The translations under genes were made by a program, and so were the position numbers. The notes below the pieces were generated by a model. That model worked only from the letters and a program-made list of their open reading frames with translations. It did not search any database and was not told the origin of the DNA. This document shows positions 1-6,777 of a stretch of DNA of 6,777 nucleotides, in pieces. Source of the stretch: a virus (taxonomy: Duplodnaviria > Heunggongvirae > Uroviricota > Caudoviricetes); the IMG/VR virus record IMGVR_UViG_2526164595_000004; one strand, written 5' to 3'. How positions within the stretch are numbered: position 1 is the first letter of the stretch; each line of letters opens with the position of its first letter.

Positions 1-28
1 AGTTCAGCTCGCCGTCGAAGACTTTCCC
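1..28 (-). CDS. T: 5' fragment of the T reading frame (gpGT fusion), reached by -1 frameshift from G; continues off-window
   Basis: The -1 frame after the GGGAAAG heptamer stays open to the window edge (GGG AAA GTC TTC GAC GGC GAG CTG AAC ...). The lambda G-T arrangement is established knowledge. Too short here to confirm by homology. Confidence 0.4.
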
Positions 29-435
29 GCAGAAAAATCATCATCAGTCAGCGTGTTATTTTTCGCCACTTCAGTAATATCAGTATCCGGACGAACAGCT
101 TCGATCATCCCGGACAGGCACAACACCACGTCTTCCGCCCGGGCAATGGCATCGGCAGGCCAGGTGGTGAGCACTTCCTGCTCTATCTTCATCACGGCCT
201 CATTCATTGACGGTGACTGCGTTTTCTGTGGATGGTTATGCCACAGGGACATCGCCACCAGAAACGCGCCGGTTCTGACGAGATCTTCCACGCTAACCTG
301 CAGGTTGCCGCAGGATTCTGCCTGTTCTGCACGCCGTTTCAGGAGGGCAAGATGCTCGATACGCTGCAGCGCAGACAATTCGGAAAGCGTGACAGACACA
401 CCGTTATATTCAAATTGTTCTGTTTTCAGAAACAT
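4..435 (-). CDS. G: Tail assembly chaperone gpG-like
   Basis: 143-aa ORF; MFLKTEQFEYNGVSVTLSELSALQRIEHLAL...GAFLVAMSLWHNHPQKTQ...NEAV..IEQEVLTTWP is near-collinear with lambda gpG (about 140 aa) as I recall it. GGAGG lies 7 nt upstream of the ATG (plus 442-446). Stop at 4-6. Confidence 0.9.
   Translation of the reverse strand: MFLKTEQFEYNGVSVTLSELSALQRIEHLALLKRRAEQAESCGNLQVSVEDLVRTGAFLVAMSLWHNHPQKTQSPSMNEAVMKIEQEVLTTWPADAIARAEDVVLCLSGMIEAVRPDTDITEVAKNNTLTDDDFSAGKSSTAS
22..28 (-). promoter_or_regulatory. Programmed -1 ribosomal frameshift slippery heptamer G GGA AAG (G to GT recoding site)
   Basis: Minus strand reads gcG GGA AAG tct in the G zero frame, 6 codons before the G stop. Heptamer and position match the known lambda G/GT slip site. 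Confidence 0.7.
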
Positions 436-448
436 GTATTACCTCCGT

Positions 449-1201
449 TTACCCTGCAGCGCCCGCTTCAGTAACGGTGACTTCAGCCACTGCGGCGAAC
501 TGACCATTTCCGCTCACCACAGGGATCTGCACCTTACCTGTCGCCACGCCGTTTACCGTAATTGTCATATCTTTCACACTAATGGTGGCTTTCGACGGAT
601 CGGCGGAAACCGCTCTGAACGTCTTGTCGGTTGCACTTTCCGGCTCAAAAGAAACCGTCAGGGTGGTTGTTTTCCCTTTTGCCACCGTACCGGATGTCGG
701 CGTCACCTTAATCGCACTGACCGGCGTAATTTTGCTGCGTTCTTCCGCTACAGAAGGTTTACCCACGTTAGTGACTTTCACCGTGCGGGTGATCACTTCT
801 TTCGCCGTCACGGCCTTACCGATACTGCTGACCCAGCCACGAAACACATCCACCGTGCCATTCGGAAAACGGATTTTATAGGCCCGGACATCGCCGCTTT
901 CAAACCAGCCTATAAGCCCTTTCTGGCCTTCCTCTCCCGGTTTCCAGGCCAGCGTAAAACTGGTATCACCTGCAGATTTCTGCCCCTGCCCGGTCGCGGT
1001 CCAGTCTGCGTCTTCATCATCCAGGTAGTTATCATCGTAGGATTCTGCCGTCATCTCGCCCGGCGTCAGATCCTTCACCTTAGCCAGTCGCTGCCAGTCA
1101 GCGTCTGACAACGGGTTTGCATAAGCATCACCCTTGCCGTTGTAAACCCACAGAGTGGTACCGGCACCTTTTACTGGCTCCAGGGGATTTGGTGTTGCCA
1201 T
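449..1201 (-). CDS. V: Major tail tube protein gpV-like with C-terminal Ig-like (Big_2-type) domain
   Basis: 250-aa ORF; [12 protein letters not shown]...[55 protein letters not shown]...[41 protein letters not shown] matches lambda gpV closely. C-terminal ...[38 protein letters not shown] resembles the Ig-like domain. SD GAGGA overlaps the U stop; start 8 nt after it. Confidence 0.93.
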
Positions 1202-1208
1202 ATCGTCC

Positions 1209-1604
1209 TCACATCTCGTATGTAATGGAATAAGTCAGATCCGCAGAGCTCCATAACGCCATATCGTCATCACGACGATACTCATAGCCCTGCGTAACCA
1301 TCGTGGTAATCAGTCCTGCCAGTGCCGGGATCGCAGTCATCGCCGGATAAATCCGGCTTTCCATCCACTGATCAAGCTCTGAATCCGGTACCTGTGCCGG
1401 TAAAAACACCTCAATATGCAGTGTGGCCCGCCAGGTATCTGCATCCAGCTCTTCACCGGTATACTCTGCATCCGTCAGATAAACCGCGATCGCAGGAAAA
1501 TCCTCTTCGTCAAAAACAACGGGGCGACCATCAAACAGCGTCGCCCCGTGTTCATGCTGCTCGAGTGCATCCAGCACTGCGGCACGAATATCAGTGTGTT
1601 TCAT
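1209..1604 (-). CDS. U: Tail terminator protein gpU-like
   Basis: 131-aa ORF; [58 protein letters not shown]...[26 protein letters not shown]...[20 protein letters not shown] is collinear with lambda gpU (131 aa). Start overlaps the Z stop as ATGA (plus 1601-1604). Confidence 0.93.
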
Positions 1605-2176
1605 CGTTTTATCGCAATCCTCAGTTGTTGTTTCAGCGCGGATGCCAGTTCTCCGGGCAGGCGTTCACGCCGGATACGGTCAACATTCTCATCAAATGCC
1701 TGTTTCAGTGGGGCCGCCATCGGGATTTTCACCACCTGAATGGGAAGGCGATTACGCTTTTTCCTTCCCTTGTCGTCATTGCCCTCCTCATATCTGGCCT
1801 GGGGAAGACGTTGCATAACATGCCAGCGCCCATTATTTAATCGCTGGATAAATGCCCGCTGATAACGATGCTGACCGGCTTTGAGTATGCTGTCCGGACG
1901 ACGCCCCAGCATTCTGATCCCCAGCTTAATCACAGGGAGATCACCGCGGTTAACGATAATTCTGGCATTCGGATTTCTGACCGTCGCCCGTTTCAGTCTG
2001 GACCGTTCCTTAACCAGTTTCCGGCGAACCTTGGTCTCCCGGGCAACCTGTGATGAAGACTGATTAATCGCCGTTGTGGCCACGCGGTTAATGGTCATTG
2101 CAGAAGCAGCCGGAATGGCGTTTTTACGAACCCGGCTCAGATTGTCAATCGCCTGATCAAGCCCTTTTATCGCCAT
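1601..2176 (-). CDS. Z: Tail completion protein gpZ-like
   Basis: 191-aa ORF; MAIKGL.QA..NLSR...A.P.A.AM.INRVA..AI.QS.SQVARETKVRRKLVKER.RLKRATV.NP.ARI.VNRGDLPVIKLG...NGRWHVMQR...VVKIPMA.PL..AF..N..RIRRERLP.EL..AL..QLR..IKR matches lambda gpZ. ATGA overlap with U indicates translational coupling. Confidence 0.9.
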   Translation of the reverse strand: MAIKGLDQAIDNLSRVRKNAIPAASAMTINRVATTAINQSSSQVARETKVRRKLVKERSRLKRATVRNPNARIIVNRGDLPVIKLGIRMLGRRPDSILKAGQHRYQRAFIQRLNNGRWHVMQRLPQARYEEGNDDKGRKKRNRLPIQVVKIPMAAPLKQAFDENVDRIRRERLPGELASALKQQLRIAIKR

Positions 2177-2190
2177 AATTCACCCTGCGT

Positions 2191-2544
2191 TTATCGTCGC
2201 CGGTTAACTGCGGGTGGTTGCCCACGGTTGAGCCAGAGATAACAGCTACCCCCGTCATCCGGAGAAACACGATCCACCCAGAATGTCTCACCATTAATGG
2301 TCAGCGTGTCACCACGCCGCACGGCACGAACCGTATCCGTCCGCACAAATAATGACGGGCTGCTTCCTTCAATACGGACCCCGCTACCGGCAAACCCCAG
2401 CGACTCCGGATCGTCAAAAACCCCCTGAACTTCGCTGCCACACTGTGCCCCCGAGGTGAACTGCGCACAGAGCCCCATCACTTCAACGATCGTACTGTCC
2501 ACCCCGGCGAGGGCAGCATCAAAGGCATTCTGAAAATCACGCAT
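2191..2544 (-). CDS. FII: Head-tail joining protein gpFII-like
   Basis: 117-aa ORF; M.DF.N.FDAA.A..D.TI...MG......SG.Q.G....GVFDDPE...AG.GVR.EGSSPSLFVRTD.VR..RRGDTLTI....FWVDRVSPDDGGSC.LWL.RG.PPAVNRRR is a strong match to lambda gpFII (117 aa). Confidence 0.92.
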   Translation of the reverse strand: MRDFQNAFDAALAGVDSTIVEVMGLCAQFTSGAQCGSEVQGVFDDPESLGFAGSGVRIEGSSPSLFVRTDTVRAVRRGDTLTINGETFWVDRVSPDDGGSCYLWLNRGQPPAVNRRR

Positions 2545-2565
2545 ATTCAGCCGTTCCGTCCTGTA

Positions 2566-2904
2566 TCATGGCCGTTGCCAGTGATGATGGCACCAGAACA
2601 CTCTGCCAGCATCAACATGCTCAACAGGCTCACCTGTTTCATCGTCAACACCGCACAGGTAAAAACACTTCAGAAGCCTGATACGTTCCAGAATACCAAC
2701 GTCATCCTCACCGGTGTGCCTGCATGCCTGCTCATGAACGGTATCATCAACATCTGCGATTTCATTTTCCGAGGCGCAAACCTCCTCTTCCCACTCTGCC
2801 ACACGCTGTGCGATATCCGCAGCACTCCCCGACATATCCGCCTCGCGCCCCAGCAGACCAGCCAGTTCACAAAGACGTTTCAGATTTTCTTCTTTTGTTG
2901 CCAT
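2566..2904 (-). CDS. FI: DNA-packaging / head assembly protein gpFI-like
   Basis: Start chosen at the internal ATG (2904-2902) preceded by AGGAGG (plus 2910-2915) with a 5-nt spacer, giving 112 aa. N-terminal half MATKEENLKRLCELAGLLGREADMSGSAADIAQRVAEWEEEV parallels lambda FI MTKDELIARLRSLGEQLNRDVSLTGTKEELALRVAELKEEL. The C-terminal part is more divergent and ends in an odd Cys/His/Trp-rich tail, so the 3' end is uncertain. Confidence 0.7.
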   Translation of the reverse strand: MATKEENLKRLCELAGLLGREADMSGSAADIAQRVAEWEEEVCASENEIADVDDTVHEQACRHTGEDDVGILERIRLLKCFYLCGVDDETGEPVEHVDAGRVFWCHHHWQRP

Positions 2905-2918
2905 ATCAGCCTCCTGTG

Positions 2919-2947
2919 AAAAAAGACACGGGGGCATTTCGCCCTCG
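2919..2947 (-). terminator. Terminator-like GC hairpin plus T6 run between E stop and FI ribosome-binding site
   Basis: Minus strand: CGAGGGC-gaaat-GCCCCCG (7-bp stem, one A.C mismatch) followed by tgtc TTTTTT, immediately upstream of the FI AGGAGG. Seen directly in sequence; function not demonstrated. Confidence 0.3.
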
Positions 2948-2955
2948 CTCACGGA

Positions 2956-3985
2956 TTATTTCACCTGTACCACCACAAACTCATCCGGATCCGGCAGCAC
3001 CATCAGCGGTGCGGACTGCGTCATGGTGAATTCACAGGACGGATCGCCCACAGTCAGCCAGTGTTTCGGGTAACGGGAAGAAGCCACCACACCTTCAGAC
3101 AACGCCTGTGCATCCTTAATGGCTCCATAGCAACGAATCCCCTCTGCTGCCGTATTCCCCAGCACCAGCGTGCCCTCCGGCAGATAACGTTTTTCGGTAC
3201 CGTCCTCTGCCACATAAGACGTTTTCGCTACCACAATGGCCAGATCACCGTAATACCCTTTGAAGGATACCACTGCGCCCAGGTCTTTCACTGCCGTTTC
3301 GAGTTGTGAATTTGAGCCGCGACGGGTATCCAGTTTTTCGCGGAACAGCTTAAAGCCATTCAGCAGACGCCAGACCGTACCGTCCATAATGGCAATATTC
3401 ACAAGACCGCTGGCCTGATCGCAGTAAAGGTCAATATCATGCGTCGGATCGAACGTGTCACGATCCTGCTCAGACCACTCCTTACCGCTACCTTGTATGA
3501 TGTTATTCTCCGTCAGAGCGGCCGAAATCCACCTCGACCGTGTCAAACTGTTCCCCTTCCATGGTGTATTTGCCATACAGCACGGCATTCACCGCCTGCA
3601 TTTCTTCCACCTGGACAATAGCGTGCTCTTCCTGTTTGAGGTTATCGGTGATGATACGCAGACGACGGTAGGCCGGGTCGTTCAGCTGAGCCGGATCTTC
3701 ACCGGGAAGGCGCTCAACCGCCTGCTGGTAATTAAATTCGTGTTTCGGCTTGACGTAGCCCGGACGCAACACGCGGGTTTCACCACCACGATGGCGCAGC
3801 ACTTTTCCTTCAACGATCGGGGAGACATAGGCCGCCACCGGCGTTTTTCCGGTAATTTTGTCCAGCATCACCTCTTCGGTGTGGAAATTCACCGTACGGC
3901 GGAAAAACAGCTCCAGAAATAGCGCACGGAATTTAACTTTTTGTTCGGTATAACCGAGTAACTGGCGGGTCGTAAACAATCCCAT
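2956..3985 (-). pseudogene. E: Major capsid protein gpE-like, reading frame interrupted by an apparent +1 insertion near 3510-3511 (pseudogene or sequencing indel)
   Basis: The N-terminal 160-aa ORF (3503..3985) and C-terminal 210-aa ORF (2956..3588) are in different frames but together are collinear with lambda gpE (341 aa). Examples: YVSPIV.G.V.R.RGG...PGYVKPKHE, AIVQVEEMQAV.AVL.GKYTM.GE.FD.VEVD.GRS in the first; ENNI.Q.G..EWS..D...DPT.DI, KLDTRRGSNS.LETAVKDLG, EFTM.QSAPLM in the second. Minus strand reads tct gac G gag aat aac at the junction. SD AAAGGAA upstream of ATG 3985. Confidence 0.85.
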
Positions 3986-4013
3986 AAATCAGTTCCTTTC
4001 ATTCAGAAATCAG

Positions 4014-4035
4014 TCAGGCCAACGCGGTGGCCTGA
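4014..4035 (-). other. Intergenic RNA hairpin between D stop and E start
   Basis: Perfect 7-bp inverted repeat TCAGGCC / GGCCTGA with an 8-nt loop, inside the 57-nt D-E spacer. No adjacent U-run, so it is not a canonical intrinsic terminator. Confidence 0.3.
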
Positions 4036-4042
4036 TAACGTG

Positions 4043-4390
4043 TTACGGCAGCGCCGCGTGACTCAGGGCACTGCCGGCAAAGGCATTGGCCTTTTTGTGT
4101 TCATCCACACTGTCAGGCCAGCGGATTGCCTCCGTCGCAAAGGTCCCCGACTTGTAATAGGTCAGCACCGTCTCTGTGCCTTCAAGCGGCAGTACCAGTA
4201 TGCCAACCGCACTACCGGCTTTCTGTCCATCCCAGACCACCAGTTTCCCGGTGGCTTCATCCAGCATCAGGGGCGTCAGAGCCGGTGTTGCAGAAGAAAT
4301 CCCGCTGCTGCCTGTGGCGGTATGAGCCGGATCATTACCAGCAAAAATACGTACTTCCGCACGCTGTTCAGTGATGGTTTTCGTCACCAT
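4043..4390 (-). CDS. D: Head decoration protein gpD-like
   Basis: 115-aa ORF; ...GNDPAHTATGSSGISSATPALTPLMLDEATGKLVVWDGQKAGSAVGIL...TYYKSGTF..E...WP.....KK.AFAGSA matches lambda gpD (110 aa; SDPAHTATAPGG...MTPLMLDTSSRKLVAWDG...AVGIL...FYKSGTF). GAGG 10 nt upstream of the ATG. Confidence 0.9.
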   Translation of the reverse strand: MVTKTITEQRAEVRIFAGNDPAHTATGSSGISSATPALTPLMLDEATGKLVVWDGQKAGSAVGILVLPLEGTETVLTYYKSGTFATEAIRWPDSVDEHKKANAFAGSALSHAALP

Positions 4391-4426
4391 TTTGTTAAAA
4401 CCTCATATTGATGGTCAGCACTGACT

Positions 4427-5029
4427 TCATGGCATGGCCATGAGCATTTTCACGTCCGCATCACCGTCTTCTGACGTCTGTGACACGCCACCCCGCACCG
4501 CTGCCGGTGAATGATTCGCCATGAAATGTTCAAACAGGGCGGTTGTGGATGCAGAGACCGGTTCGGCCTTACCTGATCCCGCAGCCAGCACAGCCCGGGC
4601 GTTCTCCACGGTCATTCCCGGGCAGGCCGCCAGTTTTTCAGCCTGCGCTTCTGCCCCTTTTGCCTCATCCAGGGCCATGATCTGATCACGAAGTGAGGGC
4701 CCGGCATCCGCCAGTGGTGCAGCCGCCAGGATCGGGCGGGCTTTTTCCACCGTCATCTCCGGCATCGCCGCCAGCGTTGCTGCCAGTTGTTCACGACCGT
4801 TCGCTTCTTCACACGCCATAATGCGATCGGCTTCACTCTGCGCGGATGCCACCGGCTGCTGCGGTGCCGCCGCGGCCAGAATCGCCCGGGCCTGTTCAAC
4901 GCTCATGCCCTGTTGCCCTGCCAGCATCGTGGCAAGCTGTTCACGTCCTTTCGCTTCCTGGCATGTCAGGATCCCCATCACTCGCTGGTTCTCCTGCACG
5001 GCGGCTTCCGTTGCAGTTAATTGCGGCAT
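4427..5029 (-). CDS. Nu3: Nested in-frame scaffolding protein (Nu3-like) from an internal start within the 3' part of C
   Basis: Internal ATG (5029-5027) preceded by GAGGAGG (plus 5034-5040). Product of about 200 aa begins MPQLTATEAAVQENQRVMGILTCQEAKGREQ..., paralleling lambda Nu3 (...ENSRIMGILNCEEAHGREEQARVLAETPGMTVKTARRILAAAP). The nested C/Nu3 arrangement is established for lambda; the exact start here is inferred. Confidence 0.55.
   Translation of the reverse strand: MPQLTATEAAVQENQRVMGILTCQEAKGREQLATMLAGQQGMSVEQARAILAAAAPQQPVASAQSEADRIMACEEANGREQLAATLAAMPEMTVEKARPILAAAPLADAGPSLRDQIMALDEAKGAEAQAEKLAACPGMTVENARAVLAAGSGKAEPVSASTTALFEHFMANHSPAAVRGGVSQTSEDGDADVKMLMAMP
4577..4984 (-). repeat. 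Three tandem, diverged copies (about 140-160 nt, 36-41 aa) of the scaffold motif inside C/Nu3
   Basis: Protein repeats RVMGILTCQEAKGREQLATMLAGQQGMSVEQARAILAAAAP, RIMACEEANGREQLAATLAAMPEMTVEKARPILAAAP and QIMALDEAKGAEAQAEKLAACPGMTVENARAVLAAG. Matching DNA similarity is visible, e.g. ctgttcacgtcctttcgcttcctggcatgtcag versus ttgttcacgaccgttcgcttcttcacacgccat. Confidence 0.7.
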
Positions 5030-5920
5030 AGTGCCTCCTCTGACATTACTGTTCAGCGCCGTGGCCATCACACTGATGGCATCCGACGCATTGATTAATT
5101 CATCCGCCAGCCCGGCCTCAATGCCGGACTGACCTTCAAAAACGGCGGCCTCTGTTCCCGTGACTGCATCAACAGACAGACCGGTATACATCGCCACTTT
5201 TTCGGCAAACATCCGGTGCGCCGCATCAATCCGCTGCTGCATATCCTGGCGAACCTCTGCCGGCAACGCTTCAAACTGATTGCCATCCACCTTGTGCGCC
5301 CCGGCATAAATCAGCGTGATATCCACACCGGCCTGCGCCAGATGACCGGCATAGCTGACATGGCTCATCATCACGCCAATGGAGCCGATACGGGATGTCT
5401 GGGTAACCAGCCGTCGGGAGCAGGCCGACGCCAGCAGCATGGCTGCAGAACAGGCCGTGTCATTGCACAGTGCCCAGACCGGCTTCTGCTGCCGGAGGCG
5501 GTAAATCATGTCAGCGCAGTCAAACGCGCCGGCGGCCTGCCCGCCGGACTGTCAATGTCCAGCAGTATGCCCCGCACCTGGCTATCTGCCATTGCCTGCT
5601 GAAGACAGGCGACAATGCCGTCATAGCCAGTCATTCCGGAAAATGGCCGCATCCCCCCCAGCCGGTGCACCAGCGTGCCGGTCACCGGCAGTACCGCAAT
5701 ACCGTTCACCACCCGGTAAACACGGGCCGGTCGTTTACCTCCGGCCATGTACTCGTCCGTTTCAGCCAGCATTCCGGGAGCATCAAGCTGTACCTGCTGT
5801 TGCGGTACCGAAAGACTTGCTGCCCCCATCTCGCGCCCCAGCGCGCAAAAGAAAACCCGCGCATAGGCGGGCTCCAGAAGCAGCGGTTCATTGAATGCTG
5901 CTGCAATAATGTGTGAAAGA

Positions 5921-6777
5921 TTACGTCTCACGTGGTGTTGTCTCCTCTTCCGGCCTGCGACTCTCCGCTATCTGCTGCTGATACGCCTGCGCTATCCACA
6001 CCGGACGTGAGAGTCCGGCTTTTTCCCGCTCTGCAGATTCCCTGACCTGCTGGCGGAAAATGTCCTGATAATCCTCGCCCATCAGCGCCAGCTCTTTCTC
6101 ATACGTGCTCAGTCCGGCCTCAATGCGCATCACTGATTCCTGAACCTCCTTGAGCCCGTCAATGGCCATTCTTCCGGCTCCAATCCACTCAGCCCGTGAC
6201 CAGGCTGATCGCGCCTGATAAAAATCAAACCGTGCCCGTGGCGGACGAATAATCCCCCGAAGAAGTGCCTCTTCCAGCCAGCAGGAAAACATCTGCGTGG
6301 CCAGCCGGGACGCAATAAATTTTCGCCGCCCCATAAAATAGCGCCACGACTCATTGGCGGATGCGCGGGCACTTGAGTAACTGACCTTCGAGTAATCACG
6401 GGACAACTGTTCGTAGGAAACGCCAAGACCGGCGGCGATATACCGCAGCAGCGCCTGTTCAAGCGCCGAAAATCCATTGTCTGAATCCTGCGCGGTCTGA
6501 AGTTTCAGATCATCACCGGGGAAAAGGTGCGGAATTTTGACACCGCCCAGCGTCACGCTATTCGTGTCATACCAGGTGGAGAACTTATCCAGAATATTAA
6601 TAAGCGGATTATCCTTCTGCCCTCGCGGCGCACCGGCGATATATTCAAAGGACCTCTTCGGTATCAAGGTCACTTTCTAATCGTCGCTGCATACATCGCC
6701 TTCTACTATGGCCGACTGAAGCTGTGTTGCCTGCAGGGAATCCAGCATCTTCAGCCGTTCCATAACGCTGTAAAACT
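5921..6777 (-). pseudogene. B: Portal protein gpB-like, 3' portion (5' end off-window); frame broken by three clustered +1 indels and an in-frame TAG at 6677-6679
   Basis: Same-frame translation upstream of the TAG (FYSVMERLKMLDSLQATQLQSAIV) and the 250-aa ORF downstream (..GG.K.PHL.PGD.L.LQTAQD.DNG.S..EQ.LLRYIAAGLGVSYEQLSR.Y...SYS.ARASANESW.YFMGRRKF.ASR...QMF.CWLEEA...AGRMAIDGLKEVQE.VM.IEAGLSTYEKE) match lambda gpB. Between them the conserved KAMYAATI and ESDLDTEEV segments are only readable in the other two frames. Confidence 0.85.

What the first reader, a model, noticed from the sequence alone, without database searches (positions are those of the whole stretch)
6645..6710. Portal gene carries three single-base insertions within about 55 bp and an in-frame amber stop
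Reading the minus strand, the lambda-like portal translation runs SAIV (frame 0), then KAMYAATI (shifted by one), then ESDLDTEEV (shifted again), then FEYIAGAPRG... (back in frame 0). The extra bases sit near plus 6703, 6678 and 6650. The net +3 restores the frame downstream but creates TAG at 6677-6679 and scrambles about 18 codons. The 8/8 identity of KAMYAATI to lambda in an off-frame makes chance divergence very unlikely. The portal would be truncated or split, which marks a defective prophage, unless these are localized sequencing or assembly indels. Three same-sign indels this close together is unusual either way.
Basis: partly seen in the sequence, partly recalled or inferred. Interest (0 to 1): 0.6.

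Follow-up and report, generated by a model that had tools for sequence, protein, structure and literature searches.

The report
Sequencing errors at a contig end
The three extra bases and the stop codon in this phage portal gene are really in the deposited sequence, but they are almost certainly sequencing or assembly errors at the ragged end of a draft contig that merged two near-identical prophages, because a finished genome that is apparently the same strain has an intact portal gene in both copies.

Summary
On the minus strand, a lambda-family portal gene carries three 1-nt insertions at window 6704, 6678 and 6652, and the second one creates an in-frame TAG at 6679-6677. The biological reading (defective prophage) is not supported.

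The window is the whole 6,777-bp contig AIHO01000041.1 of the 2012 draft of E. coli DEC15A, so the insertions lie 73-125 nt from a contig end. The finished genome of E. coli O111:H21 strain 15A has two copies of this head-tail module, both with intact portal genes. Of 324 variable alignment columns, the window equals copy 1 at 217, copy 2 at 98, and neither at 9. The contig is therefore a collapsed, interleaved consensus of the two prophages.

Six of the nine private columns cluster at 6623-6704, where the two true copies are identical. All five events there have the published form of 454 carry-forward errors: a spurious base matching an upcoming homopolymer. None of 2,883 copies of this stretch in 1,798 complete E. 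coli genomes shares the insertions. Splits in the capsid and protease genes are also artefacts.

Interest is low.

The parts
5921..6777 (-). 3' 60% of a lambda-family portal gene (gpB homologue), cut by the contig end at 6777. As deposited it is interrupted by three insertions and a TAG.
   Evidence: PF05136 is recorded on the called 250-aa product. The relatives are annotated 'phage portal protein'. The finished copy is 318/521 identical to lambda gpB.
6704..6704 (-). Spurious insertion 1: A (minus strand), T[A]GAA
   Evidence: Absent from both finished-genome copies and from L001. Fits the carry-forward form.
6677..6679 (-). In-frame TAG created by spurious insertion 2 (A at 6678), T[A]GAAA
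6656..6656 (-). Private substitution A>G inside AAAA, ahead of GG. Causes K>E in the repaired ORF.
   Evidence: Both finished copies have A. Fits the carry-forward mismatch form. K>E is seen.
6652..6652 (-). Spurious insertion 3: T (minus strand), GG[T]CCTTT. Restores the original frame.
6623..6624 (-). Private AG>GA change (CGCAGGGGC > CGCGAGGGC). One G of a GGGG run is called one flow cycle early. Causes Q>R.
4427..5931 (-). C/Nu3 (S49 peptidase / scaffold) gene, split into ORFs 5506-5931 and 4427-5509 by loss of one G from a GGG run at about 5545
   Evidence: Both finished copies have GGG and an intact 1506-bp CDS. ORF list.
2956..3985 (-). Major capsid gene (gpE homologue), split into ORFs 3503-3985 and 2956-3588. 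Between about 3503 and 3515 the consensus takes the first member of a natural compensating indel pair from copy 2 and the second from copy 1.
   Evidence: alignment (CGATC-GACGAAGAAT in copy 1, CGCTCTGAAGGA-AAT in copy 2, CGCTCTGACGGAGAAT in the window). Both finished copies have an intact 1029-bp CDS.
2566..2904 (-). FI gene whose 3' end (about 2488-2620) is a copy 1 / copy 2 chimera with two private columns (2599, 2560). The encoded 112-aa protein occurs nowhere else in the protein collection.
1..6777 (-). Whole contig: a collapsed consensus of two lambdoid head-tail modules (portal, C, D, E, FI, FII, Z, U, V, G) of E. coli DEC15A
   Evidence: Contig identity. Three-way comparison gives 217 / 98 / 9 columns. 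Control.

Best explanation
The three insertions and the amber codon are errors in a 2012 draft assembly, not mutations. Shown: the window is one entire small contig of E. coli DEC15A, formed by collapsing two about 95-100% identical lambdoid prophage head-tail modules into a single consensus. Shown: the consensus hops between the two copies, sometimes base by base. Shown: the contig starts 71 nt inside the stretch where the two copies become identical, and its first 155 nt carry five private errors. Inferred: those 155 nt were probably supported by few or poor reads. Shown: each error is a spurious base identical to a homopolymer lying one or two bases further on (T[A]GAA, T[A]GAAA, AA[G]AGG, GG[T]CCTTT, C[G]AGGG). 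This is the published signature of phasing (carry-forward / incomplete-extension) errors in flow-based pyrosequencing. Inferred: the platform was 454-type. Shown: in the finished genome both portal genes are intact.
For: 1. Source: the exact 250-aa product, and the FI product, occur only on AIHO01000041.1, a 6,777-bp contig of GCA_000250495.2. NCBI names the organism E. coli DEC15A. The AIHA-AIHS accessions belong to the DECA collection drafts.
2. Independent assembly: NZ_CP077477.1, E. coli O111:H21 strain 15A, has two full copies with intact 1593-bp portal CDSs that are not flagged as pseudogenes.
3. Chimera: of 324 variable columns the window equals copy 1 at 217, copy 2 at 98 and neither at 9. 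A control using an unrelated genome's copy leaves 34 unexplained columns. No complete genome matches the capsid-FI segment above 95.8%, or its core above 93.1%, as expected for a sequence that exists in no cell.
4. Localisation: 6 of the 9 private columns lie at 6623-6704, where copies 1 and 2 are identical, P about 1e-8. The contig end lies 71 nt from the last copy 1 / copy 2 difference.
5. Error form: all five events meet the Huse et al. 2007 definition of carry-forward errors (PMC2323236). The chance baseline is 11% per insertion and 8% per substitution, giving joint P about 1e-5. The 5545 lesion is a GGG>GG undercall.
6. Population: none of 2,883 places in 1,798 complete E. coli genomes exceeds 95.9% identity over 6620-6740, so none carries any of the insertions.
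7. Repair: deleting the three bases yields a portal sequence identical to the finished copies except K>E and Q>R.
Against: I could not see reads, qualities or coverage, so low support at the contig end is inferred. I could not verify the sequencing platform of the DEC drafts because Hazen et al. 2012 is not held. I only found that the same institute used 454 Titanium plus Celera for other E. coli in 2012 (PMC3491183). That 'strain 15A' is DEC15A rests on the name, the serotype and the 315/324 column match, not on a BioSample link. In a two-copy repeat, depth 73-155 nt from the end would not necessarily be very low, so how the errors won the consensus is not explained. The exactly equal 26-nt spacing of the three insertions is also unexplained.
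Confidence: 0.93

Rival explanations
1. The mutations are real. One DEC15A prophage has a portal gene inactivated by three nearby +1 insertions and an amber codon, making it a decaying, defective prophage.
For: The bases are in the deposited sequence. Other head genes on the contig are also disrupted, which superficially resembles prophage decay.
Against: Both copies in the finished strain 15A genome are intact, and no place in that or any other complete E. coli genome has the insertions. The other 'decay' lesions are explained as a chimeric join (capsid) and a homopolymer undercall (C gene). The lesions cluster at a contig end and have a chemistry-specific form. Three same-sign frameshifts would each have had to arise in an already dead gene within 52 bp while the other 800 bp stayed identical to intact copies.
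Confidence: 0.03
2. It is an artefact, but not a flow-chemistry phasing error. Instead it is a consensus or multiple-alignment error of the assembler at a repeat boundary, for example misaligned reads from the diverged upstream parts of the two copies, or errors from another platform.
For: The contig is demonstrably a collapsed repeat whose consensus switches copy base by base. The contig end is only 71 nt from the repeat boundary. The platform is unverified.
Against: Across 6590-6777 the two copies are identical, so mixing them cannot create new bases. All five events fit the carry-forward definition, with joint chance about 1e-5.
Confidence: 0.04
3. It is recoding: the portal is expressed through programmed frameshifts or amber read-through.
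For: None beyond the net +3 restoring the frame.
Against: No homologue has the arrangement. There are no slippery motifs at the sites. The intact sequence exists in what is apparently the same strain.
Confidence: 0.002

Closest known systems
454/pyrosequencing carry-forward and incomplete-extension (CAFIE) errors, as classified by Huse et al. 2007 (Genome Biol 8:R143; PMC2323236)
   Same: [quoted passage not shown] All five contig-end events fit. The GGG>GG undercall at 5545 is the companion homopolymer error.
   Different: Here the errors survived into an assembled consensus rather than sitting in single reads. The platform of this draft was not verified.
Collapsed-repeat (chimeric consensus) contigs in draft bacterial assemblies with multiple lambdoid prophages
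   Same: A short contig; two copies in the finished genome; a consensus alternating between the copies; a contig end at the repeat boundary; and a sequence that matches no real genome well.
   Different: Nothing unusual. Read depth, which should be about 2x, could not be checked.
Lambda gpB / phage 21 gp4 portal protein (Pfam PF05136, Phage_portal_2)
   Same: The underlying gene is an ordinary member. It is 96-99% identical at the DNA level to phage 21, PhiR12 and prophage portals, the finished copy is 318/521 identical to lambda gpB, and it has W-B-C-D-E synteny.
   Different: Only the deposited draft copy is interrupted.
Crick-Brenner triple-frameshift (+ + +) pseudo-revertants in T4 rIIB
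   Same: Three same-sign single-base insertions close together restore the downstream frame.
   Different: This is only a formal resemblance. Here a stop codon lies in the shifted stretch and the insertions are not real mutations.

Membership tests
Lambda-family portal protein (PF05136) | Sequence membership in Phage_portal_2, with homology to lambda gpB | tested here: met
   PF05136 is recorded on the 250-aa product. The finished copy is 318/521 identical to lambda gpB, and KAMYAATI is 8/8.
Lambda-family portal protein (PF05136) | Position between the head-tail joining protein W / large terminase and the C (S49) protease in a lambdoid head module | tested here: met
   Annotated synteny in L001, L002 and L005. 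Downstream gene order in the window.
Genuine pseudogene in a defective prophage | The disruption is reproduced in an independent assembly of the same strain or lineage | tested here: not met
   Both copies in NZ_CP077477.1 are intact. No complete E. coli genome shares any of the insertions.
Genuine pseudogene in a defective prophage | The disruption is supported by high-quality reads | not testable with these tools
   No read data are available.
Collapsed-repeat contig | Two or more near-identical copies in the true genome, and a consensus that mixes their diagnostic bases | tested here: met
   217 / 98 / 9 columns, with base-level interleaving. The control leaves 34 unexplained.
Collapsed-repeat contig | Contig ends coincide with the repeat boundaries | tested here: inconclusive
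   The portal end lies 71 nt inside the identical stretch, which fits. The other end (window position 1) is not near a copy 1 / copy 2 difference; it may reflect the 4 places found in the record.
Collapsed-repeat contig | About twofold read depth | not testable with these tools
   No reads are available.
454 carry-forward (CAFIE) error | [quoted passage not shown] | tested here: met
   5 of 5 events fit. The baseline is 11% for insertions and 8% for substitutions, joint P about 1e-5.
454 carry-forward (CAFIE) error | The data were generated by flow-based chemistry | not testable with these tools
   Hazen et al. 2012 is not held. The only indirect support is that the same institute used 454 Titanium plus Celera in 2012.

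The most novel reading that the evidence does not exclude
The DEC15A culture sequenced in 2012 really carried, in at least one prophage copy or a subpopulation, a portal allele with three closely spaced +1 insertions at exactly 25-nt intervals, later lost or absent from the stock used for the finished genome. This would imply a localised, periodic insertion-generating process acting on a prophage gene.
Probability: 0.02. Interest if true: 0.45.

Novelty: not a real feature. Interest (0 to 1): 0.04.

Why it matters
It has no biological importance. It is useful as a caution. Short contigs from draft assemblies of E. coli carrying several lambdoid prophages can be consensus chimeras that exist in no cell. 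Their frameshifts, premature stops and 'unique' proteins are then propagated into protein databases: here EHX96994.1, EHX96993.1, two capsid fragments and a one-off FI protein. They can be mistaken for prophage decay. A genome scan should down-weight frame-breaking indels within a few hundred bases of a contig end, and indels that have the X[N]Y-NN form.

Tried and rejected
- An exact-protein look-up of the 360-aa C-terminal C/Nu3 ORF found nothing, because gene callers used a different start (337 aa).
- A literature search for AIHO00000000 gave a false positive. Searches for DEC15A and CP077477 gave nothing useful.
- The DECA genome announcement (PMC3370608 / 10.1128/JB.00426-12) is not held, and a search for DECA + Hazen + 454 found nothing. 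The platform therefore stays unverified.
- The first reference used, L001 (ATCC 11775), is mosaic relative to the window in the FI-Z region and produced many spurious indels. It was replaced by L002 and L005.
- Programmed frameshifting or amber suppression: rejected, because there are no slippery motifs, no homologue shares the arrangement, and what is apparently the same strain has the intact sequence.
- Chimerism between the two copies as the cause of the portal insertions: rejected, because the copies are identical across 6590-6777.
- I did not use the large protein searches, structure prediction or RNA tools, because they could not bear on the question.

Full report
**1. What is in the sequence**

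The minus strand of the window encodes the 3' 60% of a lambda-family portal gene, followed by the rest of a lambdoid head-tail module: C/Nu3 S49 peptidase, D, E, FI, FII, Z, U, V and G.

- Frame 2 reads ...QLQSAIVEGDVCSDD*KVTLIPKRSFEYIAGAPRGQ...
- Frame 0 holds KAMYAATI.
- Frame 1 holds ESDLDTEEV.

KAMYAATI is 8/8 identical to lambda gpB. Alignment to close relatives places three unambiguous single-base insertions at window + coordinates 6704 (A on the minus strand), 6678 (A) and 6652 (T). None is in a homopolymer. The second insertion creates the in-frame TAG at 6679-6677.

**2. Where the window comes from**

An exact-protein look-up of the 250-aa ORF downstream of the TAG found one contig among the collection's 153 billion gene positions. 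It is AIHO01000041.1 of GCA_000250495.2, which is 6,777 bp long, so the window is that whole contig. NCBI names the organism E. coli DEC15A (EHX96994.1 and EHX96993.1). AIHA-AIHS are accessions of the 2012 DECA collection drafts (PMC3558956). The insertions therefore lie 73-125 nt from a contig end, and the whole cluster of private changes lies within 155 nt of it.

**3. An independent assembly exists**

The best full-length match among 5,426 complete E. coli genomes is NZ_CP077477.1, 'E. coli O111:H21 strain 15A' (human, New Jersey), at 98.5% identity. That genome has two full copies of the module:
- Copy 1 is at record 832,434-839,208 (L002).
- Copy 2 is at about 125.3-132 kb (L005, found through and fetched).

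Both copies have intact, unflagged 1593-bp portal, 1506-bp S49 peptidase and 1029-bp major capsid CDSs.

**4. The contig is a collapsed chimera of those two copies**

In a three-way MAFFT alignment there are 324 variable columns. The window equals copy 1 at 217, copy 2 at 98, and neither at only 9. The assignment alternates in blocks and in places base by base. Replacing copy 2 with the homologous region of an unrelated genome (ATCC 11775) leaves 34 unexplained columns instead of 9.

Consistent with a sequence that exists in no cell, no complete E. coli genome matches the capsid-FI segment better than 95.8%, or its core better than 93.1%. The FI protein as encoded here occurs nowhere else. This both ties the draft to the strain 15A genome and shows how the contig arose.

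**5. The other 'broken' genes are explained**

- **Major capsid gene:** the two true copies differ by a natural compensating indel pair about 12 nt apart (copy 1 CGATC-GACGAAGAAT, copy 2 CGCTCTGAAGGA-AAT). The window takes the first member from copy 2 and the second from copy 1 (CGCTCTGACGGAGAAT). This gives a net +1 and splits the gene into ORFs 3503-3985 and 2956-3588.
- **C/Nu3 gene:** it is split at about 5545 by a GGG>GG change that neither copy has.

The appearance of a multiply decayed prophage therefore comes entirely from the assembly.

**6. The portal cluster**

Across window 6590-6777 the two true copies are identical to each other, so mixing them cannot create new bases. Even so, six of the nine private columns lie at 6623-6704. 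The binomial P for that concentration is about 1e-8. The contig begins 71 nt downstream of the last copy 1 / copy 2 difference (L002 2930), just inside the repeat.

Written on the minus strand, the five events are:
- T[A]GAA
- T[A]GAAA
- AA[G]AGG (a substitution)
- GG[T]CCTTT
- C[G]AGGG (with the GGGG run shortened by one)

In each case the spurious base equals a homopolymer one or two bases further on. Huse et al. [quoted passage not shown] On the sequence of finished copy 1 (L002), only 11% of possible non-homopolymer insertions and 8% of substitutions have this form. That gives P about 1.4e-3 for the three insertions and about 1e-5 for all five events (a stricter version gave 6e-4). Read on the plus strand, the same events have the mirror form (NN-Y-[N]) expected of incomplete extension in a read running out to the contig end. 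I cannot tell which orientation applies.

**7. Population check**

A 121-nt query spanning the cluster hits 2,883 places in 1,798 complete E. coli genomes. The best identity is 95.9%, so no copy anywhere carries the insertions. Twenty phage records, including phage 21, also lack them. Deleting the three bases gives a portal sequence identical to both finished copies except K>E and Q>R, the consequences of the two private substitutions.

**8. Verdict**

The deposited bases are as described, but they are sequencing or assembly errors at the end of a collapsed-repeat contig. They are not mutations, and they do not mark a defective prophage. Confidence in the artefact verdict is about 0.93.

Three steps are inferred rather than shown:
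- That 'strain 15A' is DEC15A. This rests on the name, the serotype and the 315/324 column match.
- That read support at the contig end was poor.
- That the platform was flow-based. Hazen et al. 2012 could not be read. The same institute used 454 Titanium plus Celera for other E. coli genomes that year (PMC3491183).

The exact 26-nt spacing of the three insertions (25 nt in the reference) is unexplained. I treat it as coincidence, with odds roughly 1 in 25-50 given the span.

**9. Novelty and interest**

This is not a real biological feature. The underlying gene is an ordinary lambdoid portal. The interest is only methodological.

Noticed in passing
window 3503-3588 (minus strand); L002 about 6255-6275; L005 about 8140-8160: The two real prophage copies in strain 15A differ in the major capsid gene by a natural compensated indel pair about 12 nt apart (CGATC-GACGAAGAAT in copy 1, CGCTCTGAAGGA-AAT in copy 2), which changes a few residues in frame. 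The draft consensus switches copy between the two indels and so creates a false frameshift that splits the capsid gene.
   Followed up: yes
window about 5545 (minus strand): One G is missing from a GGG run that is present in both finished copies. This splits the C/Nu3 S49 peptidase gene into 141-aa and 360-aa ORFs and is a typical homopolymer undercall.
   Followed up: yes
window 2488-2620 and 2566-2904 (minus strand): The FI 3' end is a copy 1 / copy 2 chimera with two private columns (2599, 2560). The resulting 112-aa FI protein is unique in the 15-billion-protein collection, so a database singleton was created by the assembly.
   Followed up: partly
window 6704, 6678, 6652: The three insertions are exactly 26 nt apart in the window (25 nt in the reference), and the first two both turn T|GAA into TAGAA. 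The motif is explained by the carry-forward form; the equal spacing is not.
   Followed up: partly
window 22-28 (minus strand): GGGAAAG lies near the end of the G (tail assembly chaperone) gene. This is the canonical lambda G/GT -1 programmed frameshift heptamer. The T part lies beyond the contig.
   Followed up: no
window position 1 (contig's other end); L002 9775: This contig end is not near any copy 1 / copy 2 difference (the nearest are at L002 9481 and 10463). The finished genome has 4 places matching parts of the window, so the break may reflect a change in repeat copy number from 2 to 4 in the tail genes. Copies 3 and 4 were not fetched.
   Followed up: no
L001 934-1468 (ATCC 11775 prophage): RefSeq annotates a frameshifted rrrQ lysozyme pseudogene in the related prophage of the E. 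coli type strain. It is unrelated to the finding.
   Followed up: no
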